Below are positions 12,835-53,400 of a DNA stretch of 54,200 nt, piece by piece. Origin of the DNA: a virus (lineage: Duplodnaviria; Caudoviricetes); the IMG/VR virus record IMGVR_UViG_3300036844_000041, positions 1 to 54,200 of that record, one strand, 5' to 3'. Below the pieces are notes generated by a model. The model made no database searches. It had not been told where the DNA came from and saw nothing but the letters and a program-made list of their open reading frames with translations. Position 1 is the stretch's first letter, and each line of letters starts with the position of its first letter. A program made the translations under genes and the position numbers.

Positions 12835-13344
12835 TCACGACACAACCCGCAGATGCTTACGGTTGGTCGGCGCGGTACCGCACGTCGCGCACGAGCCGGA
12901 GCCGTCATCGGCGAACGCGTGCGTTCCGGTCGGATTTCCTAGATCCCTTTTCTCTTCTCTACTTCCCTTGAGAGCGGAATCCGGTGCGTTTCCGGACGGA
13001 TTCCGGGCGGAATCCGTCTTACGCTTGCGGTCGGCCGCGCGCCGTTCCTCGATGACCGAGATGGCGTCGTTGTGGGAAAACCACGCCGCCACGAACCAGT
13101 CCTCGGTCTCCTCGTCCCACAGCACGAGCTCCAACTCGGCGAGGCGCTTCAGCTCGGCCTTCCACCTAGGGCGGTGGAGCCGGCCCACCTGTGCCTCGCT
13201 CAGCCGTCCGTCGGTGCCCAGGGCCTTGCACTTGAGCAGCATCGCGATGTACAGCAATGTCGGTCCGTCGCTGGCCGCGATGATCCGGTCGTCGTCGAGG
13301 AATCCGACGGTGAGCGGGATGTAGAGCTTCGGCTTACGGCCCAC
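12835..13344 (-). CDS. Putative replication initiator-like protein
   Basis: FLDDDRII...LLYIAML...TDGRL...L.ELELV..W...RRAADRKRK resembles actinophage replication-initiation N-termini. Confidence 0.45.
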   Translation of the reverse strand: MGRKPKLYIPLTVGFLDDDRIIAASDGPTLLYIAMLLKCKALGTDGRLSEAQVGRLHRPRWKAELKRLAELELVLWDEETEDWFVAAWFSHNDAISVIEERRAADRKRKTDSARNPSGNAPDSALKGSREEKRDLGNPTGTHAFADDGSGSCATCGTAPTNRKHLRVVS

Positions 13345-13825
13345 CGACCCTCGCCCCCTTCGCGCTGTTGCAGGACCGGCAAAGCACGCGGAGGTTGTCC
13401 TCGGTGTGTTGCCCGCCGAGCACCTGCGGATAGATGTGATCGAGGGTCAGATCCTCGGTGGCCCCACACAGCCGGCATCGTCGCCCGTCACGGGCGTAGA
13501 CGGCTCGCGCAATATCCGCGGGGACCTTGCTGGCCGGAATCACCACGCGGTAGGCGGGTTTGCCGTTGCGGCCGATCATCGGATTGAGGACCCGATACCC
13601 GACGTCGCCGGCCCACTCCCACAGCCCGACGCCGATCAGAATCGGCGTCAGCCTTCCGCGCGCATCAGTGAAGAGGGCCTCCTCGTGGGGATAGATGTCG
13701 CCACCGTTCCGCGTGATGTAGCCGACGCTCATCACCCAGAGCCCGAACGCCTCCGTTCCGGCCATCCAGACCTCGGGCGAGCTGTCGAGACCCTCGGCAA
13801 ACGCGATCAACGCCATGTCGGCCAT
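13334..13825 (-). CDS. HNH endonuclease
   Basis: VYARDGRRCRLCG..LTLDHIYPQVLGG..NLRVLCRSCNSAKG. Confidence 0.92.
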   Translation of the reverse strand: MADMALIAFAEGLDSSPEVWMAGTEAFGLWVMSVGYITRNGGDIYPHEEALFTDARGRLTPILIGVGLWEWAGDVGYRVLNPMIGRNGKPAYRVVIPASKVPADIARAVYARDGRRCRLCGATEDLTLDHIYPQVLGGQHTEDNLRVLCRSCNSAKGARVGGP

Positions 13826-45408: not shown

Positions 45409-46119
45409 TCATGAGGGGCTCTTTTCGGGGGTGCGGGTCCGGCGCAGCAGTTTCGCCACGTCGGCCACCATCCCGGTCTGCTTCCACGCTAGGAAGGCTT
45501 CCCGGTCTGCGGCGAACCGGGCGGCGTGGTTGGTTTCCCGGTAGGACTCGTCCCAAGCCGTTTTGCCGGCGACCGGGTGCAGGTGCTCGATAACCGCGTC
45601 CGGCCGGTAGGCGATCCGGCCGGCGGCGCGACCCAACTCAAGGACGGCGTTGTCGACGTACATGTGTTCACAGGTGGGCAGCATCATCCACCCGACGGCT
45701 TGCACCGCCTCGACCGACACCATCCACGCGGTGGGAAGTTGTGCCCGTTGCAGCAGGTCGTCGCCGTAGGCGATGCCGGGTCCCGGCATGGCTTCGATTG
45801 CTGCGGCGAGCTTGCGGTCCCAGTGCGGGGTGCGTGGCCGGTGGTCGTCGCCGAGGGAGGCGAGGTAACGCGGCGGGTTGTCGGATTCGACGGCAATCCG
45901 GGCGAGGTGGTTGGTCCATCCGGACAGCGACCGCCGGGCGCCGCGGAACGCCACAACCAGGTCGGCGCCGCACGCCTGCCCGTAGTCGGCCGGGTCGTCG
46001 TTGTCGATGCCGGCCCAGACCTGCACGTCGAGTGCGCAGGTTGCCCGGACCGCGTCGACGAGTCCGGCGAAGCGGTCCGGCCGCCCGCGGGTCGGGGTGA
46101 TGATGACGAGGTCAGGCAC
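45409..46119 (-). CDS. GT-A glycosyltransferase
   Basis: IITPTRGRP ... SLGDDH.PRT..WD ... HMYVDN ... IEHLHP. Confidence 0.85.
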   Translation of the reverse strand: MPDLVIITPTRGRPDRFAGLVDAVRATCALDVQVWAGIDNDDPADYGQACGADLVVAFRGARRSLSGWTNHLARIAVESDNPPRYLASLGDDHRPRTPHWDRKLAAAIEAMPGPGIAYGDDLLQRAQLPTAWMVSVEAVQAVGWMMLPTCEHMYVDNAVLELGRAAGRIAYRPDAVIEHLHPVAGKTAWDESYRETNHAARFAADREAFLAWKQTGMVADVAKLLRRTRTPEKSPS

Positions 46120-46726
46120 GCCGCCACCAGCCCATCGGGTGGTGGGAGACGCTGTGCAGGTGTTCGATCTCCTCGTCGCGTACCCACGCCGGGTTGTCGA
46201 CGAGGCGGGACCGGACCGCGTCCAACGGGCTGCCGGGCAGCCCGGCCAGGTTGACGGCCGCAAGTGCCTGCTGGTCGGCGTGTCCGAGGATGGTGTCCTC
46301 CACCACCAGGTAGCAGCCGGGGGTGACCAGCGGGCCGTACAGGTCGATCTCGTCGGTGACGTGGTCGGCGGAGTGGTCGGAGTCCAGCGACACCATGACC
46401 CGCCGGCCGTGGACCGTGGCGGCGACCTGGGCGGCGAGGCCGCGGTGGACGGAGTCCCCGACGAGATAGGTGATCGCGGGGTGCGCCGGGGGTGATGTCT
46501 TCTGGATCAGGTCGATGGTGATGACGTCGACACCCTGTCCGGCGAACCACAGGGCCGATCCGCCGTAGCGGGTGCCGCACTCCACCACCACATCAGGCCG
46601 GGTCGCCGCGATGATCCGCGAGTACCGGTCCAGGTCAGCGGCCAGCTTGTCGACCTTCACCCCGTTGATGACCTGCCGCTGGCCCCGCTGCGCGAGCACC
46701 TCGACCGAGGTCGCGATGTCAACCAC
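46112..46726 (-). CDS. CmcI/rhamnosyl O-methyltransferase-like SAM-dependent methyltransferase
   Basis: PDVVVECGTRYGGSALWF ... GDS ... VMVSLDSDH ... PGCYLVVEDT ... HPMGWW. Confidence 0.9.
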   Translation of the reverse strand: MVDIATSVEVLAQRGQRQVINGVKVDKLAADLDRYSRIIAATRPDVVVECGTRYGGSALWFAGQGVDVITIDLIQKTSPPAHPAITYLVGDSVHRGLAAQVAATVHGRRVMVSLDSDHSADHVTDEIDLYGPLVTPGCYLVVEDTILGHADQQALAAVNLAGLPGSPLDAVRSRLVDNPAWVRDEEIEHLHSVSHHPMGWWRRA

Positions 46727-47489
46727 TGACGATCTCCACACCATCGGGCGGCTCCTGCTGTCGCAGCGCCGCAGCCCGGCGGGTCTCCACGTAGTAGTCC
46801 TCCGACACCCACAGCTGCTTCAGGTGGGTGGTCTTGACGCCGGTGTGGACGTACAGCGGTATGCCGGCGGCGCCGAGCCGGGCACAGAAGGACATGTCCT
46901 CGCCGAGGATGCGCGGCTCGTCCGGCAGGCCGGCCCGGGTGAACCAGGTGTCCCCGGCGCCGGCGCGGAGTTTGTCGAGGATTCCGCGGTGGATGAGCAG
47001 GAACGCAGCCCCGGTCGCGGCGACCCGGGTGACGGTGTTCTGCGGGTACTCCCACCGGATCGTGAAGCCCCACCGGTTGGTGCCGGGTAGGTTCCCCCAG
47101 TCGTAGATCGTGGGGAACGGCTTGGTCAGGTAGCCGCCCTGGCCGTCCGTGACGACCTGCTGTAAGCCGAAGCACAGCGCGCCCACCACGGGCCGCTCGA
47201 CGGGATCGGCGGCCTCGAGGAGCCGGTCGACGGAGTCCTCCGTGAACCCCATGTCCGAGTCCACGAACAACAACCAGTCGGCCTTCGACTCGTCGAGCAG
47301 GTACGCACACGCCTTGTTGCGGACCTCCGGCAGGGTGTTCACGCCGGCCGGCAGGAGCGCCGGACCGCCCCCGCGGACCAGCCGGCCCTCGTGCATCGCG
47401 TCGTAGGCGACCATCCTCAGCATGGACTCGCTGTAGGACGTCGCCACGGTGTGGGCGTGCAGGGTGGCCGCGAAGACGGCGTCACCCAC
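46719..47489 (-). CDS. GT-A glycosyltransferase
   Basis: RN...L....DWLLFVDSDMGF ... ATGAAFLLIHR ... GEDMSFC.R...G.P.YVHTGV...H.K. Confidence 0.88.
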   Translation of the reverse strand: MGDAVFAATLHAHTVATSYSESMLRMVAYDAMHEGRLVRGGGPALLPAGVNTLPEVRNKACAYLLDESKADWLLFVDSDMGFTEDSVDRLLEAADPVERPVVGALCFGLQQVVTDGQGGYLTKPFPTIYDWGNLPGTNRWGFTIRWEYPQNTVTRVAATGAAFLLIHRGILDKLRAGAGDTWFTRAGLPDEPRILGEDMSFCARLGAAGIPLYVHTGVKTTHLKQLWVSEDYYVETRRAAALRQQEPPDGVEIVSG

Positions 47490-47788: not shown

Positions 47789-49504
47789 TCAGGTCTGGCT
47801 CAGGACCCGGAACGCCAGGTCGTTGATCGAGTCCGACCCGAGCCGTGCCCACGCCCACAGGCCACGCTGACCGGTCGGGACACCGGTGGTGGTGTCCACC
47901 ACGTGCTGCACGACCTCGACCGTCATCCCGACCCGCTGCGCGATCAGGAAGTTCGACCAGTCGCCGACGATGAGCAGCGACGCGTCCGACGTCGACGCGA
48001 CCATGGAGTCCATGTAGTCGTTGGCGTGGTACGGCTTGCCGAACAGTTGCGGGATCTCGCCGGCGAGCAGGTTGACGGTGAAGTTGGCGTCGTCGTTCTC
48101 GCCGAACTGGCGCACCTCGTTCTGGATCTCCGTCGAGGACATCCAGCGCGCGTTACGCCGCCACTTGATCGGCAGCGCCGCCCACAGCGCGTATACATCC
48201 TCCGGGTGGAACTCGCCGTCGGTGACCACCGCGACCTGCGCGTTGGTGTTCGCCTCGAGCGCGGTGACGATGCCGGTCGGTTGGGCTGTCGTCCCGAGTC
48301 CCGTGGTGAGCCCTTCGACGACCTTCTCGTTGTAGCCCGAGTTGAGGACCATGCTCATCTCGGACGCGAACGCGGGGTAGTCCCCGCCGATCTCCACGCT
48401 GTACGGGATCCAGCCGGTGAGCTTCTTCGTCGGCACGGTCGGCTGGGCCAGCACCGGCGCGCCGTCGGTGGACGTGACACCTTCCGTCGTCCAGTACCAG
48501 GTGGCACCCGCCGACGAGACACCCTTCCACTCGTCGTTGGTGATCTGCTCCACCCGCGAGATGGCGAAGAAATCGTTCGGGTGACCCTGACCGGTGATGA
48601 TGATCGTCGGGTCAATGAGGCAGTGTTGTTACTCCTCGGCGGCGCCGAGGGGGCCGGTCATTTCTGCCGGCCTCTTCACGTCTCCGTGAAGCTCAGACCA
48701 TATCTTTGCCTCGGTGAGGCAACCCGTGCATGGTCGTTGAACCTTCCCGTCGGGTTTCCCCAGGCGGGCTCGGCTGCTGATTGTCCCTACCGTCCGCTTC
48801 TCGAACCGTCGCGTCCAGGCTTTCGCCTCACGCTGTGGTGCGGACGTCTAGCGGGATGTCCCAGCAATTCTCGGGTTTTTCACTAGTCCGTCGCCGGACT
48901 AGGCGGCCCTGGTGTTGACCGGAACGCCGTACCCACCCGCCGCGTCCGTCAGGGACATGGCGGTCCGCAGTTCGTTGAACTGCCGCAGCGCCGCCGCTTC
49001 CTCGGACGACAGCAGTGCCGCGCCGCCGAGGATCTGCCGGAACGCGGTGTGGTAGTGCGGGTTCTCGCTGGCCAGCAGGAGCCGGGCCAGCTTCGTGCCG
49101 TCGAAGTTCTTCGACTCGGTGCGCAGTAGCCGGTCGACGTGGGCGCGCTGCTCGTCGGTCATGTGGTCGGTGTGCTCGCGGGACTCGAGCACCTTGCGGG
49201 CCTTGTCCCGGGCCTGGTGTCGGGGCAGCGCGCGTACGTCGGAGCCGTCGAACGGCTCGACCTTGCGCATCACCTCGGGTGCCACCGGGTCGACGTTCTC
49301 GGTGTGGCCGGGCCGGTCGGCCAGCGACCGCACCACGGCGCGGCGTTCGTCGTCTCGGGCGATCGCCGCTTCGACCTGGCCCCGTTCGGCGACGAGGGTG
49401 TCCCAGGTGGTCTGCTGCTCTTCGGTCAGGGCCGCGTCACCCGCGGCCTCGTGGATGCTGCGAAGCTCGGCCTCAATCTCGGCGAGCCGCACGCGTGGGT
49501 TCAC
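47789..49504 (-). CDS. Major capsid protein (HK97 fold), spliced: exon 1 49504-48918, exon 2 48620-47789, 472 aa
   Basis: GTG start after GGAG; coiled-coil delta domain; splicing gives ...AGGYGVPV|LIDPTIII...; C-terminal IVGDWSNFLIAQRVG ... GQRGLWAWARLG. Confidence 0.92.
48621..48917 (-). mobile_element. Group I self-splicing intron (297 nt, no ORF)
   Basis: P AATTGCTGGGA, Q AATCAGCAGCC, R GTTCAACGACCA, S AAGATATGGTC; P3 AACCCG/CGGGTT; P7 GACCA/TGGTC; GNRA-capped P2 and P9; exon ends in U with U.G in P1; terminal G. Confidence 0.95.
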
Positions 49505-50327
49505 AGTCTGCTCCCAGATGTGCAAGGGAAGGCACGGCAAGCAGTCGCGCTCGCGCGTGCGCGGACAGACCGGTCGAGTGGTGCACCACTGGGGTGTCCG
49601 GCGCGTCGGTCGGGCTGATCGCGGCGCCCGGTGCCGAGGTGCCCACAGGGGCGGCGTCGGCGTCGGGAGTGCGGAGGCCGTGCTGGGCACGGAAGTCTTC
49701 GAACCGCGCGGCGAGCGCGGCGTGGCGGTCGGGGCTGCGGGACCGGAGCCGATCGGCGTACCAGTCGGTCATGCACCGCAGTCCAGCGGTTGCGGCGGGG
49801 TTGGCTGGCCAGGTGACCGGCCCGAATTCGAGCAGCCGCACCTCGAGGATGGTGCGCTCGGGGATGCCCTGCGGGTTGTGCTCGGAAACGCCAGGCTCCT
49901 CGCTCCATTCGTCACGCAGGACCTGGAACATGAACGAGGACCCGTAGCCACCGGCCTCCAGGCCGGGAAGAAGGTCTCGGTTGTAGGAGGTGTCCAGCAA
50001 CGGAACCTCGGCGTGCGGTCCGTCGTCCCGCTCCTCGAGCACCTCGGGGACGCCGAGGATCTTCTCGCCGACGTGGAAGTCCATACCGTGGTTGAACAGC
50101 ACCTTGATCTGGGCCTGCCGCTCGGCGATGGTCTTCGCGAACGCACCACGCTGGGTCCGCTCGAGGAACTCGCCTTCCCAGAAGCTCGCGATGCGGTACC
50201 AGATGCCGAACGGGGAGAACCGCACGGCCATCGTCGGCATCCCCGGCTCCGGCCCATCGGCTGGAACGGCGCGCAGCGCGTCGACCGCAGGGACGCCGCG
50301 CACTACGGAGAGGTCACGCTTGGCCAC
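49473..50327 (-). CDS. HK97-family prohead maturation protease
   Basis: FLERT.RGAF.KTI ... VLFNHG ... LLDTSYNRDL ... GSSFMF.V ... EFGPVTWPA. Confidence 0.92.
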   Translation of the reverse strand: MAKRDLSVVRGVPAVDALRAVPADGPEPGMPTMAVRFSPFGIWYRIASFWEGEFLERTQRGAFAKTIAERQAQIKVLFNHGMDFHVGEKILGVPEVLEERDDGPHAEVPLLDTSYNRDLLPGLEAGGYGSSFMFQVLRDEWSEEPGVSEHNPQGIPERTILEVRLLEFGPVTWPANPAATAGLRCMTDWYADRLRSRSPDRHAALAARFEDFRAQHGLRTPDADAAPVGTSAPGAAISPTDAPDTPVVHHSTGLSAHARARLLAVPSLAHLGADCEPTRAARRD

Positions 50328-51663
50328 CGTCGCCTCCTGATTCCCGTGCGGGTGGATCCGCCGGACTGGACGCGCCGGCGGGCTGGAGTTGTACCGAGTA
50401 GAGGCCGGTGTGGGCGAGCTGTGTCAGATCTCCACTCGACACCGCGGCCACGATGGACTCGGGTGTGTAGCCAGCGCGGACCCCGGACTCAATGGCGAGC
50501 ATCTGCTCTTTGAGGATCGCGGCCTTGTCCTTCTCGTCCTCGCGGAGGAACGCGATGTCGCGGTCGTCGTACCACAGCCGTACCGAGCCGGGCGGTCTGC
50601 GAACCACGGTTTCGAGCGCGGCGCACGCCGAGCGCCACTGCGGGCGAGCCCAGTGGTCGCCGAACTTCCGCCGGGCTGACGCGTAGTTGGAGTACGTGGC
50701 GGCCTGAAGTCCCTCGGATAGTCCGACGATGATGGGTGGCACGCCGCCGGCCGCGCAGATCCGCGTCTCACCGGCGCCTTGGGTCGCTTTGAAGTCGAGT
50801 TGTTTGAGGTCCGCGCCGGCGACTGTGACGTCGGCGCCGCCGCCGAGGTACAGGGTCTTGTATGCCTGGTCGACGCCGGCGTGCGCCGCGTTCATGATCT
50901 CGATGAATTTCTTGAACTGGTCAGAGGTGACGTTCTCCTTGAGCGACACGACCAGGCCGGGTTTGGCGCCGTTGCGGAAGAACGCGGCCTTGTGGTCGGT
51001 CGCTGCCCCGTCTGCCTGGATCTCCCGCACCACGGGCGTGATCCATGACATGCCGCGGTACTGCTGCTCCGGGTCGGGGATCGGCGACCAGTGCGCGACC
51101 TCACCGGGCAGGTACAGCTTCCCTTCGGATTTCGACATGAGGCCGCCGGGCCGGTACAGGTAGCCGGCGACGTCGGACTCGACCGCCTCGTCCGGTGGGG
51201 CGGTCAGGACAATCGATACCCAGTCCGGTCGCAGCCGCCGCAGCCGTTGGCCTTCCCGGGCGACGAAGAAGTTCCCGGAGTTCGTGGCGTCCTGCTCCAT
51301 CCGGCCAAGGAGTTCGCCGGTGGTGCCGTTTGGCCATGGCCGTTCGAGCGGCGTCAGATCGGGATTCCCGAACAAGGTCCCGGGCCGGCCCTTGTCGAGC
51401 GGCTGCCACTGGAACCGCGCCTCACTGAAGAGAAGCTGCCGGGCGAGGGAGATGGCGAACACCACACCGTTGCGCTTGTAGGCGCCACGGACGTAGCCCT
51501 GGAAGGTGTGTTCGATCTCCTCGACCGTGGAACCCATCCCGGACAGCCCGACGATGGGGTAGGTGTGGCCGTTGAAGGTGAACCAGTTCGCAGCGTCCTT
51601 AGCCCATTCGTCGAGGGTGTACCGGCGTTCGCCACGCCCGATCAGGGTCCGCCACAGCTTCAC
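50314..51663 (-). CDS. Portal protein
   Basis: GNFF...LRPDWV ... GMSW ... FFRNGA.P ... GVPP...G ... TYSNY. Confidence 0.93.
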   Translation of the reverse strand: MKLWRTLIGRGERRYTLDEWAKDAANWFTFNGHTYPIVGLSGMGSTVEEIEHTFQGYVRGAYKRNGVVFAISLARQLLFSEARFQWQPLDKGRPGTLFGNPDLTPLERPWPNGTTGELLGRMEQDATNSGNFFVAREGQRLRRLRPDWVSIVLTAPPDEAVESDVAGYLYRPGGLMSKSEGKLYLPGEVAHWSPIPDPEQQYRGMSWITPVVREIQADGAATDHKAAFFRNGAKPGLVVSLKENVTSDQFKKFIEIMNAAHAGVDQAYKTLYLGGGADVTVAGADLKQLDFKATQGAGETRICAAGGVPPIIVGLSEGLQAATYSNYASARRKFGDHWARPQWRSACAALETVVRRPPGSVRLWYDDRDIAFLREDEKDKAAILKEQMLAIESGVRAGYTPESIVAAVSSGDLTQLAHTGLYSVQLQPAGASSPADPPARESGGDGGQA

Positions 51664-51817
51664 TTGCCCGCCCTTCGATATCGAAGACGAAGAGCACGAG
51701 CGCGGCCAGGCCGACGCCGGAGCAAATGAGCCCGGCGGGTCCGAGCCACCAGGTGAGGCCGGCGGTCACGAGAGCGATGGCCACAAGCAGGAGCCCGAGG
51801 GCTTCACGTTTCGTCAT
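51599..51817 (-). CDS. Small membrane protein between terL and portal
   Basis: Two hydrophobic helices; ATGA overlap with the terL stop. Confidence 0.55.
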   Translation of the reverse strand: MTKREALGLLLVAIALVTAGLTWWLGPAGLICSGVGLAALVLFVFDIEGRASEAVADPDRAWRTPVHPRRMG

Positions 51818-53400
51818 GCGTACATTGCCCACGGTTCCGAGGTACCTGCCGTCAACGCGCCCTCCTCGATTGCCTGACCGCGGGCGGCCTCGGCGAGGAT
51901 CCCGGCAACGAACGTGTCAATGTGACCCTTGTCGCGCTTGGGCACGATCCGCAGGTAGTGGTGTGACACCGACGGATCCTCTTCGGGCCGCGGCGCCCGT
52001 TTGCGGCCTTTGGCAAGCGCGGCCATCATGACGTGCCGGCGGAGGATGTCGTCGCCGTCGTGGGTCATGTCGCCCCTGAACACGGTCTGGAAACGCACGA
52101 TGGCGTCGTCCATGCGCTTCTCGACGTTGGTGGGGAATTCCACGACCCGGCCGGGCCAGCGTGCGGCCCACACGTCGAAGTACTCCTGCCACCGGTACGG
52201 GTCGCCGAAGAAGTACAGCACCTCGTATGCCTCGAACGCGTCGGTGAGGACCTGGTCGACCTCGGTCCGTGGGATCTTCCCGTCCTGGTAGTCGGCGGGG
52301 TTCCAGGTGCGCAGGTGGAACCAGCGGCCGTCTTCGAGTCTGGACGCCACGATCGAGGTGCAGTCCAGCGATCGGGAGCCGTCGAACCCGATGGCGATCT
52401 TCTGCTTCGGAGTCAGGTCCCGGTCCCGGACTTTCGCGTCCCAGCGGGTGGCGTCGACGGCGTCGGCGACACCGACGACGATCCGGTTGAAGAAGTACCG
52501 CAGCGCATCCGCCCACGTTGGACAGACGTTGGGGTCCCGAGCGTCGGTGAGGACCCGGTCCCGGTCCACCCACCACGAGTCCCCGTAGACGTGCTCGAGG
52601 CAGGCGAGACAGTCTTCATCGTCGTCCTGGCGGGGGAGCCGCGGCGCCGGCCGGTAGTCGACGACGACGTCCGGCATCTTCGCCTCGTGCGTGCGCTGGG
52701 CGACGGACTTCTGACTCGGATCGTAGGCGTTGGTGGTTTCCAGCCACCGCCCGGACATGCCGCCGATGTTCCGCTTCATCGTGGACGCGAGGAGCACGCC
52801 GCCGTTGCTCTCCACGAAGAGATGGGTCTCGTCGAAGATCGCGAACGTCAGCCGGGCACCCAGCCGGGCCTTCCCGCTCGACGTACGCGGCTCGATCTTC
52901 CCGCCGGACGGCAGGTTGATGTCCTCGACCCCGATGTCCACGCCGGGGATGTCGGCGACTGCACCGCGGCGGGCCATCTCGTAGACGCACAGCCAGGTGT
53001 TGTCAGTCTGCTCCTCCGACGTGGCCACAATCTGGATCCACGGCGTCGGGTGCGGCTCGCCCATGGGCTCGCCGTCTTCATCCCAGCCGGCGAACCGGAC
53101 CGGGCCGAACGCCTCGGCGAGGCAGATCGCCGCGGCGAACGGCCCCTTCCCCCACTTCTGCGGACGCATCAGCAGACCGCCGCGGTTGTGGAACGCCGCC
53201 GACGGCCGGTCCTTGATGTACCGGGCGTTGGGCTTGAGCCGATAGAAGCGGAACAGGAACATCCACATCTCGTCGGTGAGCACGAACGGCTCGCCCTGGT
53301 AGTTCCCGTCGGGGATGACGCAGTTCGCTTCGATCCATTCGCCGACCACGTACCCGAGGGTTGGGATCTCGCCCTCGAATTCCGGCCCGCGCCAGGGCAT
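51814..53400 (-). CDS. terL: Terminase large subunit
   Basis: Walker A RPQKWGKG, Walker B AIFDETH, nuclease GFDGSRSLD, C-terminal HID. Confidence 0.95.
   Translation of the reverse strand: MPWRGPEFEGEIPTLGYVVGEWIEANCVIPDGNYQGEPFVLTDEMWMFLFRFYRLKPNARYIKDRPSAAFHNRGGLLMRPQKWGKGPFAAAICLAEAFGPVRFAGWDEDGEPMGEPHPTPWIQIVATSEEQTDNTWLCVYEMARRGAVADIPGVDIGVEDINLPSGGKIEPRTSSGKARLGARLTFAIFDETHLFVESNGGVLLASTMKRNIGGMSGRWLETTNAYDPSQKSVAQRTHEAKMPDVVVDYRPAPRLPRQDDDEDCLACLEHVYGDSWWVDRDRVLTDARDPNVCPTWADALRYFFNRIVVGVADAVDATRWDAKVRDRDLTPKQKIAIGFDGSRSLDCTSIVASRLEDGRWFHLRTWNPADYQDGKIPRTEVDQVLTDAFEAYEVLYFFGDPYRWQEYFDVWAARWPGRVVEFPTNVEKRMDDAIVRFQTVFRGDMTHDGDDILRRHVMMAALAKGRKRAPRPEEDPSVSHHYLRIVPKRDKGHIDTFVAGILAEAARGQAIEEGALTAGTSEPWAMYA

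What the first reader, a model, noticed from the sequence alone, without database searches (positions are those of the whole stretch)
48621..48917. ORF-less group I intron interrupting the major capsid gene
Seen: complete P/Q/R/S core; P1 (exon CGGU with intron GCCG, U.G at the splice site); P10 (AGG with exon CCU); P2, an extended P5 domain, P8, P9-P9.2; terminal G. Removal joins GT|C to give GVPV-LIDPT. Unspliced RNA stops at 48899, giving a ~200-aa product that is mostly the delta/scaffold domain. Established: phage group I introns are mostly reported in DNA-metabolism genes of lower-GC phages and often carry homing nucleases. Inference: an intron in the most abundant virion protein of a high-GC actinophage is unusual. 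Splicing efficiency could set a scaffold-fragment:capsid ratio or gate assembly, and a free-standing HNH (13334-13825) might mobilise it in trans.
Basis: partly seen in the sequence, partly recalled or inferred. Interest (0 to 1): 0.82.

Follow-up and report, generated by a model that had tools for sequence, protein, structure and literature searches.

The report
Self-splicing intron splitting a phage capsid gene
A 297-base group I self-splicing intron without a gene of its own interrupts the only major capsid gene of this soil actinophage; it is real, but it belongs to a widespread and partly described intron lineage that mostly sits in phage capsid genes.

Summary
Rfam's group I intron model hits 48674-48932 (-) at 67.9 bits against a cut-off of 50. 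Intron-less homologues read GGYGVPVLIDPT without a break, and only 48918|48620 gives P-V-L together with a U before the intron and a G at its end. This restores a 472-aa HK97-type capsid protein. P2-P9.2 and the P3/P7 pseudoknot show strong covariation across 28 relatives.

It is not unique. The 3' domain is shared with the mycobacteriophage LittleE capsid intron and the BAKA tail intron, both shown to splice (Pope 2013). A 19-base motif of that domain occurs in at least 120 viral-contig stretches. In 35 of 80 fetched loci the intron lies beside a capsid-type exon. Close relatives sit at the same capsid site; four carry an Endonuclease VII-type gene in the P8 loop.

The best reading is a selfish, ORF-less mobile intron that must splice for capsid synthesis. 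A scaffold-ratio role has no support. The free-standing HNH shows no link to the intron. Splicing of this copy is inferred, not shown.

The parts
48918..49504 (-). Capsid exon 1: GTG start at 49504-49502 after a GGGAG, 195 codons plus 2 bases. It encodes the delta (scaffold-like) domain and ends ...GGYGVP + GT.
   Evidence: It is colinear with the N-terminal halves of intron-less homologues P0003-P0071. It has no Pfam hit of its own.
48621..48917 (-). Group I intron, 297 nt, with no ORF. Intron position i = 48918 minus the window coordinate.
   Evidence: Rfam RF00028 at 67.9 bits; family covariation; fold z = -5.82; junction fixed by homologues.
47789..48620 (-). Capsid exon 2: 1 base plus 276 codons plus stop, beginning (V)LIDPTIIITGQG. 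This is the HK97-fold body.
   Evidence: Pfam PF05065, E 2.1e-28. Matches PDB 9lw6 residues 266-538, E 4.5e-52. It is the only PF05065 match in the record.
48904..48910 (-). Internal guide sequence AGGGCCG. GCCG pairs with exon 1 CGGU (P1, with U48918.G48907). AGG pairs with exon 2 CCU (P10).
   Evidence: Read from the sequence. P1 co-varies with the target in relatives: exon CGGU with guide GCCG, against exon CGAU with guide GUCG.
48883..48902 (-). P2 hairpin, 8 bp with a GCGA (GNRA) loop. It contains the in-frame TAG at 48901-48899.
   Evidence: Helix 1: 8 of 8 pairs have changes on both sides; 92.4% of cells are paired.
48741..48876 (-). P3 5' strand (48876-48872) and the P4-P6 domain: P4 48866-48861/48780-48775; P5 48856-48853/48787-48784; P5a 48846-48840/48797-48791; P5b with a GAAA loop 48839-48805; P6/P6a 48774-48741.
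   Evidence: Helices 2-10. P4 is invariant; P5a has 7 of 7 pairs with changes on both sides and P5b has 6 of 8.
48695..48737 (-). Catalytic core. P7 5' strand 48737 and 48735-48730, with C48736 bulged; P3 3' strand 48726-48722; P8 48721-48717/48711-48707 with a 5-nt loop; J8/7; P7 3' strand 48701-48695.
   Evidence: Helices 2, 11 and 12. The P7 closing pair co-varies three ways (GC 18, CG 5, AU 4). Relatives carry an insert of about 680-700 nt with an Endonuclease VII ORF in the P8 loop.
48621..48691 (-). 3' domain: P9 (48691-48685/48680-48674, GAGA loop), P9.1 (48672-48665/48660-48652), P9.2 (48649-48644/48640-48635), the tail GAGUAACAACACUG and the terminal G at 48621.
   Evidence: Helices 13-15. 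This domain is shared with the BAKA and LittleE introns (nhmmer E 2.6e-12 and 3e-10).
49473..51663 (-). Context: portal gene (50314-51663) and S78 prohead protease gene (49473-50327), directly upstream of the capsid gene.
   Evidence: Pfam PF04860, E 3.2e-32, and PF04586, E 1.3e-15. The large terminase lies at 51814-53400.
13334..13825 (-). Free-standing HNH endonuclease gene. It was considered as a possible mobiliser, and no link to the intron was found.
   Evidence: PF01844, E 1.5e-12. Its neighbour resembles a replication initiator. It has no significant similarity to the intron ORF of relative L106.

Best explanation
This is a complete, splicing-competent group I intron of 297 nt without a homing-endonuclease gene, lying in the single HK97-type major capsid gene of a high-GC soil phage.

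Inferred mechanism, following established group I chemistry:
1. The pre-mRNA folds into P1-P9.2.
2. The guide sequence AGGGCCG holds the end of exon 1 (CGGU, with U.G at the splice site) and the start of exon 2 (CCU).
3. An external guanosine bound in P7 attacks after U48918.
4. The freed exon end attacks after the terminal G48621.
5. The exons join as ...CCG GT|C CTC..., giving a 472-aa capsid protein reading GGYGVPVLIDPT.

The in-frame TAG six codons into the intron stops ribosomes before they enter the ribozyme core.

The element is best seen as a selfish mobile intron. It is an ORF-less member of a lineage whose other members carry an Endonuclease VII-type gene in the P8 loop and home into the conserved GG..VP..DPT stretch of capsid genes. 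This copy either lost that gene or never had one, so it persists by descent or by recombination in co-infections.

Shown here: the sequence, the structure with its covariation, the junction by homology, and the family membership. Inferred: actual splicing, its efficiency, and mobility.
For: - Rfam RF00028 hit at 67.9 bits against a cut-off of 50.
- Junction: 10 intron-less homologues (466-483 aa) read GG..VP.(L/F)(I/V)DPT across the break with no gap, and exon 1 and exon 2 stop and start being similar exactly there.
- Among junctions that give P-V-L, only 48918|48620 has a U before the intron and a G at its end (read).
- Covariation on 28 distinct family members: 82 pairs, 96.3% of cells paired against 75.9% in shuffles. 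58 pairs have changes on both sides against a mean of 39.9, and 0 of 500 shuffles reach this. Slid controls give 33.5-41.6%. RNAalifold predicts 75 pairs, 55 of them compensatory.
- P1 co-varies with the target: six loci have exon CGGU with guide GCCG, and three loci at a site 10 nt downstream have exon CGAU with guide GUCG.
- Relatives sit at the same site in homologous capsid genes: L131 (89% identical over 285 nt, ORF-less), L157, L106, L094 and L163.
- The 3' domain is homologous to the BAKA and LittleE introns, whose splicing was shown by RT-PCR and by N-terminal protein sequencing (PMC3706429, section 19, read).
- The record has only one capsid gene. It is estimated 91% complete and lies at about 31x depth in the probable source DNA run. 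A viable phage would therefore need splicing.
Against: - There is no direct evidence that this copy splices. No RNA run held this phage. The RNA contigs laid came from relatives and covered only intron sequence.
- Rfam's alignment places P1 in a different register, which would break the frame.
- P10 is only 3 bp and is not conserved in relatives.
- With no endonuclease gene, present-day mobility is unproven.
- The retrieval pattern fixes 19 bases of P9.1, so conservation of that helix is partly due to how the sequences were selected.
- The structure used came from the same alignment, and P7 was added by hand from the window's sequence. This favours it over the slid controls.
Confidence: 0.88

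Rival explanations
1. Regulatory intron. Splicing efficiency is tuned so that unspliced mRNA yields a free 201-aa delta-domain protein that acts as a scaffold in trans. This would set a scaffold:capsid ratio or time assembly.
For: - The intron lies about 13 residues past the likely delta-domain boundary, by analogy with LittleE, whose mature N-terminus is 10 residues before GGY.
- The in-frame stop gives a tidy truncated product.
- The lineage is strikingly concentrated in capsid genes: 35 of 80 loci.
Against: - The same lineage also sits in capsid families without such a domain layout (P22 coat, Phage_cap_E, PF25209), in portal, tail-tube and minor-tail genes, and in 23S rRNA genes.
- Four different insertion points within 24 nt, and up to five introns in one capsid gene, fit homing into conserved DNA, not one functional boundary.
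- All 80 of the closest capsid relatives in viral contigs lack the intron, so it is dispensable for this capsid type.
- An early in-frame stop is general in the capsid-site relatives (10 of 10).
Confidence: 0.06
2. Dead intron in a dead phage. The ribozyme no longer splices, so the capsid gene is a pseudogene in a decaying prophage or a defective particle.
For: Splicing is not shown for this copy. There is no endonuclease gene. The record is a metagenomic contig without end repeats.
Against: - Every core helix is intact in the window's own sequence, including the P7 pair at the G-binding position and the terminal G.
- Both exons are open and colinear with homologues at up to 76% identity.
- The portal, protease and terminase genes are intact.
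Confidence: 0.04
3. The free-standing HNH (13334-13825) cuts intron-less capsid alleles and mobilises this ORF-less intron in trans.
For: Trans-acting free-standing endonucleases are known in phages (general knowledge, recalled). The gene does encode an HNH domain (PF01844, E 1.5e-12).
Against: - It lies about 35 kb away in the replication module.
- The lineage's own enzymes are Endonuclease VII-type and lie inside P8.
- It has no significant similarity to them (E 0.35).
- No co-occurrence was tested.
Confidence: 0.04
4. Not an intron at all: an assembly chimera, an intein, or a programmed frameshift or readthrough region.
For: None was found.
Against: - A DNA contig spans the region with 0 differences at even depth.
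- The insert has stops in the capsid frame, which rules out an intein.
- It matches a ribozyme model and shows RNA covariation.
Confidence: 0.01

Closest known systems
Mycobacteriophage LittleE gp13 capsid intron (Cluster J; Pope et al. 2013, PMC3706429)
   Same: - It is a group I-type intron in the major capsid gene of a high-GC actinophage.
- It is inserted in the same GGY.VP motif just after the delta-domain cleavage site.
- It has a U before the intron and a G at its end.
- Its P9-P9.1 and 3' tail are homologous (nhmmer E 3e-10).
- Its splicing was shown experimentally.
   Different: - LittleE's intron is about 810 nt and carries an endonuclease ORF on the opposite strand.
- It is inserted 14 nt upstream, between the G and Y codons.
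- Its 5' core lacks the long P5 extension and reaches only 30.7 bits on Rfam, below the cut-off.
- Only profile positions 204-271 align with the window's family.
Mycobacteriophage BAKA/Optimus gp34 minor-tail intron (Pope et al. 2013)
   Same: It is ORF-less and small (265 nt), lies in a virion structural gene, and was shown to splice by RT-PCR. It has the same 3' domain (nhmmer E 2.6e-12, profile positions 204-295).
   Different: It sits in a tail gene, not a capsid gene. Its 5' half differs and has no extended P5.
Uncharacterised capsid introns in viral contigs and actinomycete genomes (L131/L244, L157, L106, L094, L163; Streptomyces, Kitasatospora)
   Same: - They are 86-95% identical to the window's intron over the aligned core segments (79.8-91% over the 3' segments).
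- In L131, L157, L106, L094 and L163 the intron sits at the same P1 target and in the same capsid family.
- Full-length copies occur in contigs labelled Streptomyces, Kitasatospora and Pseudonocardiaceae.
   Different: L106, L094, L163 and L108 carry a 223-227-aa Endonuclease VII-type ORF in the P8 loop. L108 sits 6 nt upstream of the window's site. I found no paper that describes these introns.
Classical phage group I introns (T4 td/nrdB/nrdD, SPO1 DNA polymerase, Twort)
   Same: [quoted passage not shown] They have an early in-frame stop after the 5' splice site. Twort has several introns in one gene. These points come from general knowledge and from the introduction of PMC3706429.
   Different: They lie mostly in DNA-metabolism genes of low-GC or Gram-negative hosts. 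From recall, they are subgroup IA with P7.1/P7.2. The window's intron has only 3 nt between P7 and P3' and instead has an extended P5 plus P9.1 and P9.2. Subgroup models were not available here.
Bacterial 23S rRNA group I introns
   Same: The same P9.1 motif lies inside 23S rRNA genes of Actinomycetota and Acidimicrobiia MAGs. All 4 of 4 loci checked show this: L212, L215, L260 and L274.
   Different: Their host gene is an rRNA, so there is no reading frame to restore. Only the 3' module was shown to be shared.

Membership tests
Group I intron (Rfam RF00028) | Covariance-model score above the curated threshold | tested here: met
   67.9 bits against a gathering score of 50, E 3.7e-15, full model 1-253. 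The own-genome search gave 56 bits.
Group I intron (Rfam RF00028) | Conserved core P3-P8 with the P3/P7 pseudoknot, supported by covariation | tested here: met
   P3 has 3 of 5 pairs with changes on both sides, P7 has 3 of 7 and P8 has 4 of 5. P4 is invariant. Overall 96.3% of cells are paired against 75.9% in shuffles.
Group I intron (Rfam RF00028) | 5' splice site after a U that forms U.G with the internal guide in P1 | tested here: met
   U48918.G48907 lies within CGGU/GCCG. The guide co-varies with the exon at a second site (CGAU/GUCG).
Group I intron (Rfam RF00028) | [quoted passage not shown] | tested here: met
   G48621. The five close capsid-site relatives and L108 also end in G directly before exon 2.
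Group I intron (Rfam RF00028) | G-binding G-C pair in P7 next to a bulged nucleotide | tested here: met
   G48735-C48696 with C48736 bulged. This column pair is GC in 26 and GU in 2 of 28 sequences. That this pair is the guanosine-binding site is recalled knowledge, not tested.
Group I intron (Rfam RF00028) | Removal restores an uninterrupted host gene | tested here: met
   The exons join in frame to 472 aa, colinear and without a gap against 10 intron-less homologues. All 80 of 80 intron-less loci carry the contiguous motif.
Group I intron (Rfam RF00028) | Guanosine-dependent self-splicing | not testable with these tools
   This needs an in vitro or in vivo assay. It has been shown only for the related LittleE and BAKA introns, and there only as in vivo RT-PCR.
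Cluster J mycobacteriophage intron lineage (LittleE/BAKA) | Homologous ribozyme sequence | tested here: inconclusive
   The 3' domain is clearly homologous (nhmmer E 3e-10 and 2.6e-12, profile positions 204-271 and 204-295; alignment). The 5' two-thirds do not align.
Cluster J mycobacteriophage intron lineage (LittleE/BAKA) | Same insertion site as the LittleE capsid intron | tested here: not met
   LittleE's intron lies between the G and Y codons of GGYAVP. The window's lies 14 nt downstream, after GT of the V that follows P.
Subgroup IA (typical phage introns) | Extra P7.1/P7.2 helices between P7 and P3' (feature recalled from memory) | tested here: not met
   Only 3 nt separate the P7 5' strand from P3' (intron positions 189-191). 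Subgroup covariance models were not available, so the subgroup stays open. The layout looks IC-like: P2, extended P5, P9.1 and P9.2.
HK97-type major capsid protein (Pfam PF05065) | Profile match, plus gene order portal - protease - capsid | tested here: met
   Exon 2 matches PF05065 at E 2.1e-28. The S78 protease and portal genes lie directly upstream. PDB 9lw6 matches at E 4.5e-52.
Mobile (homing) intron | Intron-encoded homing endonuclease | tested here: not met
   The window's P8 loop is 5 nt and the 297 nt hold no ORF. Relatives L106, L094, L108 and L163 carry a PF02945 ORF there.

The most novel reading that the evidence does not exclude
The window's intron is one member of a large, essentially undescribed lineage of group I introns specialised on phage major capsid genes.

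- The lineage occurs across at least five unrelated capsid protein families.
- It uses several re-targeted insertion points within 24 nt at the delta-domain/capsid-body boundary.
- Up to five introns occur in one capsid gene.

Its concentration there may not be purely selfish. Unspliced transcripts could supply free delta-domain scaffold. Alternatively, the endonuclease-bearing members could serve as weapons between co-infecting phages by cutting rivals' capsid genes.
Probability: 0.12. Interest if true: 0.75.

Novelty: new member of a known kind. Interest (0 to 1): 0.45.

Why it matters
For annotation: the capsid gene of this phage and its relatives is called as two unrelated ORFs. The public protein set holds the 254-aa exon 2 call (P0001). 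Recognising the intron restores a normal 472-aa capsid protein.

For biology: a self-splicing RNA sits in the most heavily expressed virion gene, so capsid supply depends wholly on ribozyme efficiency. Pope et al. raised this point for LittleE.

The wider pattern found here may be worth a dedicated census:
- The motif occurs in at least 120 viral-contig stretches.
- Introns lie beside capsid-type exons in 35 of 80 loci.
- The guide sequence changes with the target.
- Some capsid genes hold several introns.
- Actinomycete genomes and 23S rRNA genes hold relatives.

I found no such census in print (searches; the group I intron database paper PMC11835236 has no mention of phage or capsid).

Tried and rejected
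- Close phage relatives. blastn of the region against 50,697 phage records found only short Gordonia-phage capsid matches covering 5-8% of the query. tblastn of exon 2 found 71 records, all at 38.2% identity or less. blastn of the intron alone gave only weak matches to phiKZ-like phages (E 0.02 to 1), which I do not interpret.
- Intron profile on intron-less capsids. nhmmer with the family profile found 0 hits in the 80 closest capsid loci.
- RNA evidence. Of 24 runs listed, only the probable source DNA run holds the stretch. I laid X1 plus three RNA runs. No contig of this phage appeared in the RNA runs, and no exon-exon joint was seen. This says nothing either way about splicing.
- Short capsid homologues as extra split alleles. 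Of the 8 short proteins fetched, P0046, P0032, P0105, P0018 and P0096 read straight across the site.
- phrog_13692, the host protein of 12 loci. It has no Pfam hit and no PDB sequence hit. The Atlas lead points to 'major capsid protein' (score 0.98). I treat this as a lead only.
- Subgroup assignment. No subgroup models are on hand.
- Supplements and figures of PMC3706429 (Fig. 10C) could not be seen. I derived the LittleE junction from the record's sequence and the published N-terminal peptide.
Full report
WHAT IS THERE. The window is a 54.2-kb virus record, 69% G+C and estimated 91% complete. On the minus strand the genes run large terminase (51814-53400), portal (50314-51663) and S78 prohead protease (49473-50327). 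Two open frames follow, separated by 297 nt.

- The first frame (GTG at 49504, after a GGGAG) ends ...GGYGVPV and then runs NTRAA to a TAG at 48901-48899.
- The second frame is open from 48628 and reads ...LIDPTIIITGQG... to a stop at 47789-47791.
- The second frame matches Pfam Phage_capsid (PF05065) at E 2.1e-28. The first frame has no Pfam hit.
- Rfam's group I intron model matches 48674-48932 (-) at 67.9 bits (cut-off 50, E 3.7e-15, full-length model). The only other Rfam hit in the window is a tRNA.

THE JUNCTION. A search with exon 2 found 534 proteins at E <= 0.001 among 1591 candidates. Most of the 120 listed are 460-483 aa. Ten of these, aligned with the two window frames, read GG(Y/F/L)(G/A)(V/L)P(V/A/T/I)(L/F)(I/V)DPT without a gap. 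Exon 1 loses similarity right after GVPV, and exon 2 gains it at LIDPT. G191, G192, P196, D200, P201 and T202 are invariant.

To give P-V-L the cut must fall in or beside the V codon. Only 48918|48620 (GT|C) leaves a U before the intron and a G at its end. The spliced gene has 587 + 829 = 1416 coding bases, or 472 codons, within the range of the homologues.

The guide sequence AGGGCCG (48910-48904) pairs without a break with the ligated exons CGGU|CCU. Rfam's alignment draws P1 five bases further upstream. That register would break the frame and is not conserved in relatives.

STRUCTURE AND COVARIATION. A motif shared with the BAKA and LittleE introns led to many relatives. From blastn hits that covered intron positions <=45 to >=260 (32 hits), I dropped 5 identical copies and aligned the 27 remaining sequences with the window.

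- RNAalifold predicts 75 pairs, of which 55 have compensatory changes.
- I added P7 by hand as a pseudoknot, giving 82 pairs. Of all cells, 96.3% form standard pairs against 75.9% in shuffles.
- 58 pairs have changes on both sides against a mean of 39.9, and 0 of 500 shuffles reach any of the five measures. Sliding the partners by 1-3 columns gives 33.5-41.6% paired.
- Every helix except the invariant P4 and the base of P6 co-varies. The P7 closing pair switches among G-C, C-G and A-U.
- L2 and L9 are GNRA loops throughout the family, and the P5 extension ends in GAAA.
- The window's own sequence folds at z = -5.82.

Caveats: the retrieval pattern fixes 19 bases of P9.1, and the structure was derived from this same alignment.

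RELATIVES AT THE SAME PLACE. In viral contigs the intron recurs in homologous capsid genes at the same P1 target.

- L131 is 89% identical over 285 nt and ORF-less. The same sequence lies in a Pseudonocardiaceae MAG contig, L244.
- L157 has about 64 extra bases in P8.
- L106, L094 and L163 each have an insert of about 680-700 nt in the P8 loop.
- L108 has the same kind of insert but sits 6 nt upstream.
- The inserts encode 223-227-aa proteins on the intron's strand that match Endonuclease VII (PF02945) at E 1e-20 to 1e-21.

More distant HK97-type capsids (27-33% identical: L118, L087 and L134, and for their 3' ends also L119 and L161) carry the intron 10 nt downstream, between the D and P codons. 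There the exon reads CGAU and the guide GUCG, against CGGU and GCCG in the window group. LittleE's intron lies between the G and Y codons.

So four insertion points fall within 24 nt of one conserved motif. All 10 capsid-site copies for which I have the 5' end have an in-frame stop within six codons.

By contrast, the 80 closest capsid loci in viral contigs have uninterrupted matches with at most about 75 nt of excess length. They give no hit to the intron profile, and all 80 have the contiguous motif. 57 of 83 motif instances (three of which lie elsewhere in the loci) begin CCGGT at the P-V codons. Targets are therefore common and occupancy is low.

THE WIDER LINEAGE. The 25-letter pattern (19 specified bases) hit at least 120 stretches in viral contigs and at least 120 in species-representative genomes. 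For the 596-Gb genome set, a uniform-composition estimate gives about 4 chance hits (my arithmetic).

A family profile gave 124 hits in the window plus 82 loci, and only one hit in the window. About a third of the hits cover the whole window-type ribozyme. The rest share only the 3' domain, as BAKA and LittleE do.

I clustered the exon pieces next to the introns and scanned 30 of them. The tally for the 80 viral loci is:

| Exon next to the intron | Loci |
|---|---|
| Capsid-type (PF05065; PF25209/PF13252; P22 coat PF11651; Phage_cap_E PF03864; phrog_752, phrog_1357, phrog_9953) | 35 |
| phrog_13692 (unknown function; the Atlas points to a capsid protein as a lead only) | 12 |
| Portal | 1 |
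| Tail tube | 1 |
| Homologue of the BAKA minor tail protein | 1 |
| Unassigned, or no exon piece of 40 aa or more | 30 |

Labels spread through BLAST clusters from one or two scanned members, so the counts are approximate. The phrog_13692, portal, tail-tube and minor-tail rows are counted by label, so a locus that carries two labels appears in more than one row and the table sums to more than 80.

Full window-type copies also occur in contigs labelled Streptomyces, Kitasatospora, Pseudonocardiaceae and Actinomycetota. This supports an actinobacterial host. The capsid's nearest named homologues (Streptosporangium, Nonomuraea, Microbispora, Planobispora) point the same way.

WHAT IS KNOWN. Pope et al. 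2013 (PMC3706429; passages and section 19 read) showed intron splicing in the LittleE capsid gene by gel size, N-terminal sequence DLDRNNGTGGYAVP across the junction, and RT-PCR. They also showed it in the BAKA tail gene. [quoted passage not shown]

Later Cluster J genome notes repeat this; I saw only their search listing. Large numbers of group I introns were reported in gut jumbo phages, in terL, nrdD and polymerase genes (PMC12880540, passages read). My three searches found no description of a capsid-centred lineage in soil or actinobacterial phages. The 2025 group I intron database paper has no occurrence of 'phage' or 'capsid'. Papers outside the held library cannot be excluded.

HOW IT MOST LIKELY WORKS. 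See Best explanation: ordinary two-step group I splicing that restores the capsid mRNA. The early TAG keeps ribosomes out of the core. The copy itself is an endonuclease-less member of a homing lineage.

The HNH at 13334-13825 is a PF01844 enzyme in the replication module, and it is unrelated to the lineage's own Endonuclease VII genes.

VERDICT. The feature is real and the junction is as proposed. It is a new member of a known kind. Its interest is moderate, and comes mainly from the size and capsid bias of the lineage it reveals.

Noticed in passing
L133:1600-4180 (viral contig); also L128:5450-9680 and L160:9080-12150: One PF25209-type capsid gene in L133 is cut by five introns of this lineage. 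Three are full window-type copies, and two are seen through their 3' domain. tblastn of intron-less homologues maps the exon pieces in order between them. L128 and L160 show 5-7 intron hits, some with mini-exons of 16-29 aa.
   Followed up: partly
window:48620-48884, contig 'record 22' of RNA run X21: A 206-nt metatranscriptome contig from a relative joins the intron's 3' end (through the terminal G) directly to what looks like an intron 5' end (P1 loop, guide sequence, P2, then positions 34-77). This fits a full-length intron circle, or tandem introns in DNA. It is a single contig at depth 2.7 and does not come from this phage.
   Followed up: no
L212, L215, L260, L274 (Actinomycetota and Acidimicrobiia MAG contigs): The same P9.1 motif lies inside 23S rRNA genes. 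The LSU model matches are stretched by roughly 700 nt or more around model positions 2046-2912. So the 3' module is shared with rRNA group I introns of soil bacteria. All 4 of 4 loci checked show this; 86 3' ends were found in 80 genome loci.
   Followed up: partly
L088, L093, L121, L144 (viral contigs): In each of these loci two motif matches lie about 290-312 nt apart, meaning adjacent introns separated by very short exons.
   Followed up: no
window:46719-47714 (-) and 46112-46744 (-): Directly downstream of the capsid gene lie a glycosyltransferase-like ORF (phrog_34859, E 6.8e-23) and a 210-aa ORF with no PHROG hit. LittleE also has a glycosyltransferase directly after its capsid gene.
   Followed up: no
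window:31767-31840 (-): A tRNA gene, 58.8 bits in Rfam. The anticodon loop as aligned reads CUCAUAA, which suggests tRNA-Met. I did not check this with ARAGORN.
   Followed up: no
window:53400-54059 (-): The ORF upstream of the large terminase, where a small terminase would be expected, matches a PHROG labelled 'minor tail protein' (phrog_226, E 2.4e-16). The label may be unreliable.
   Followed up: no
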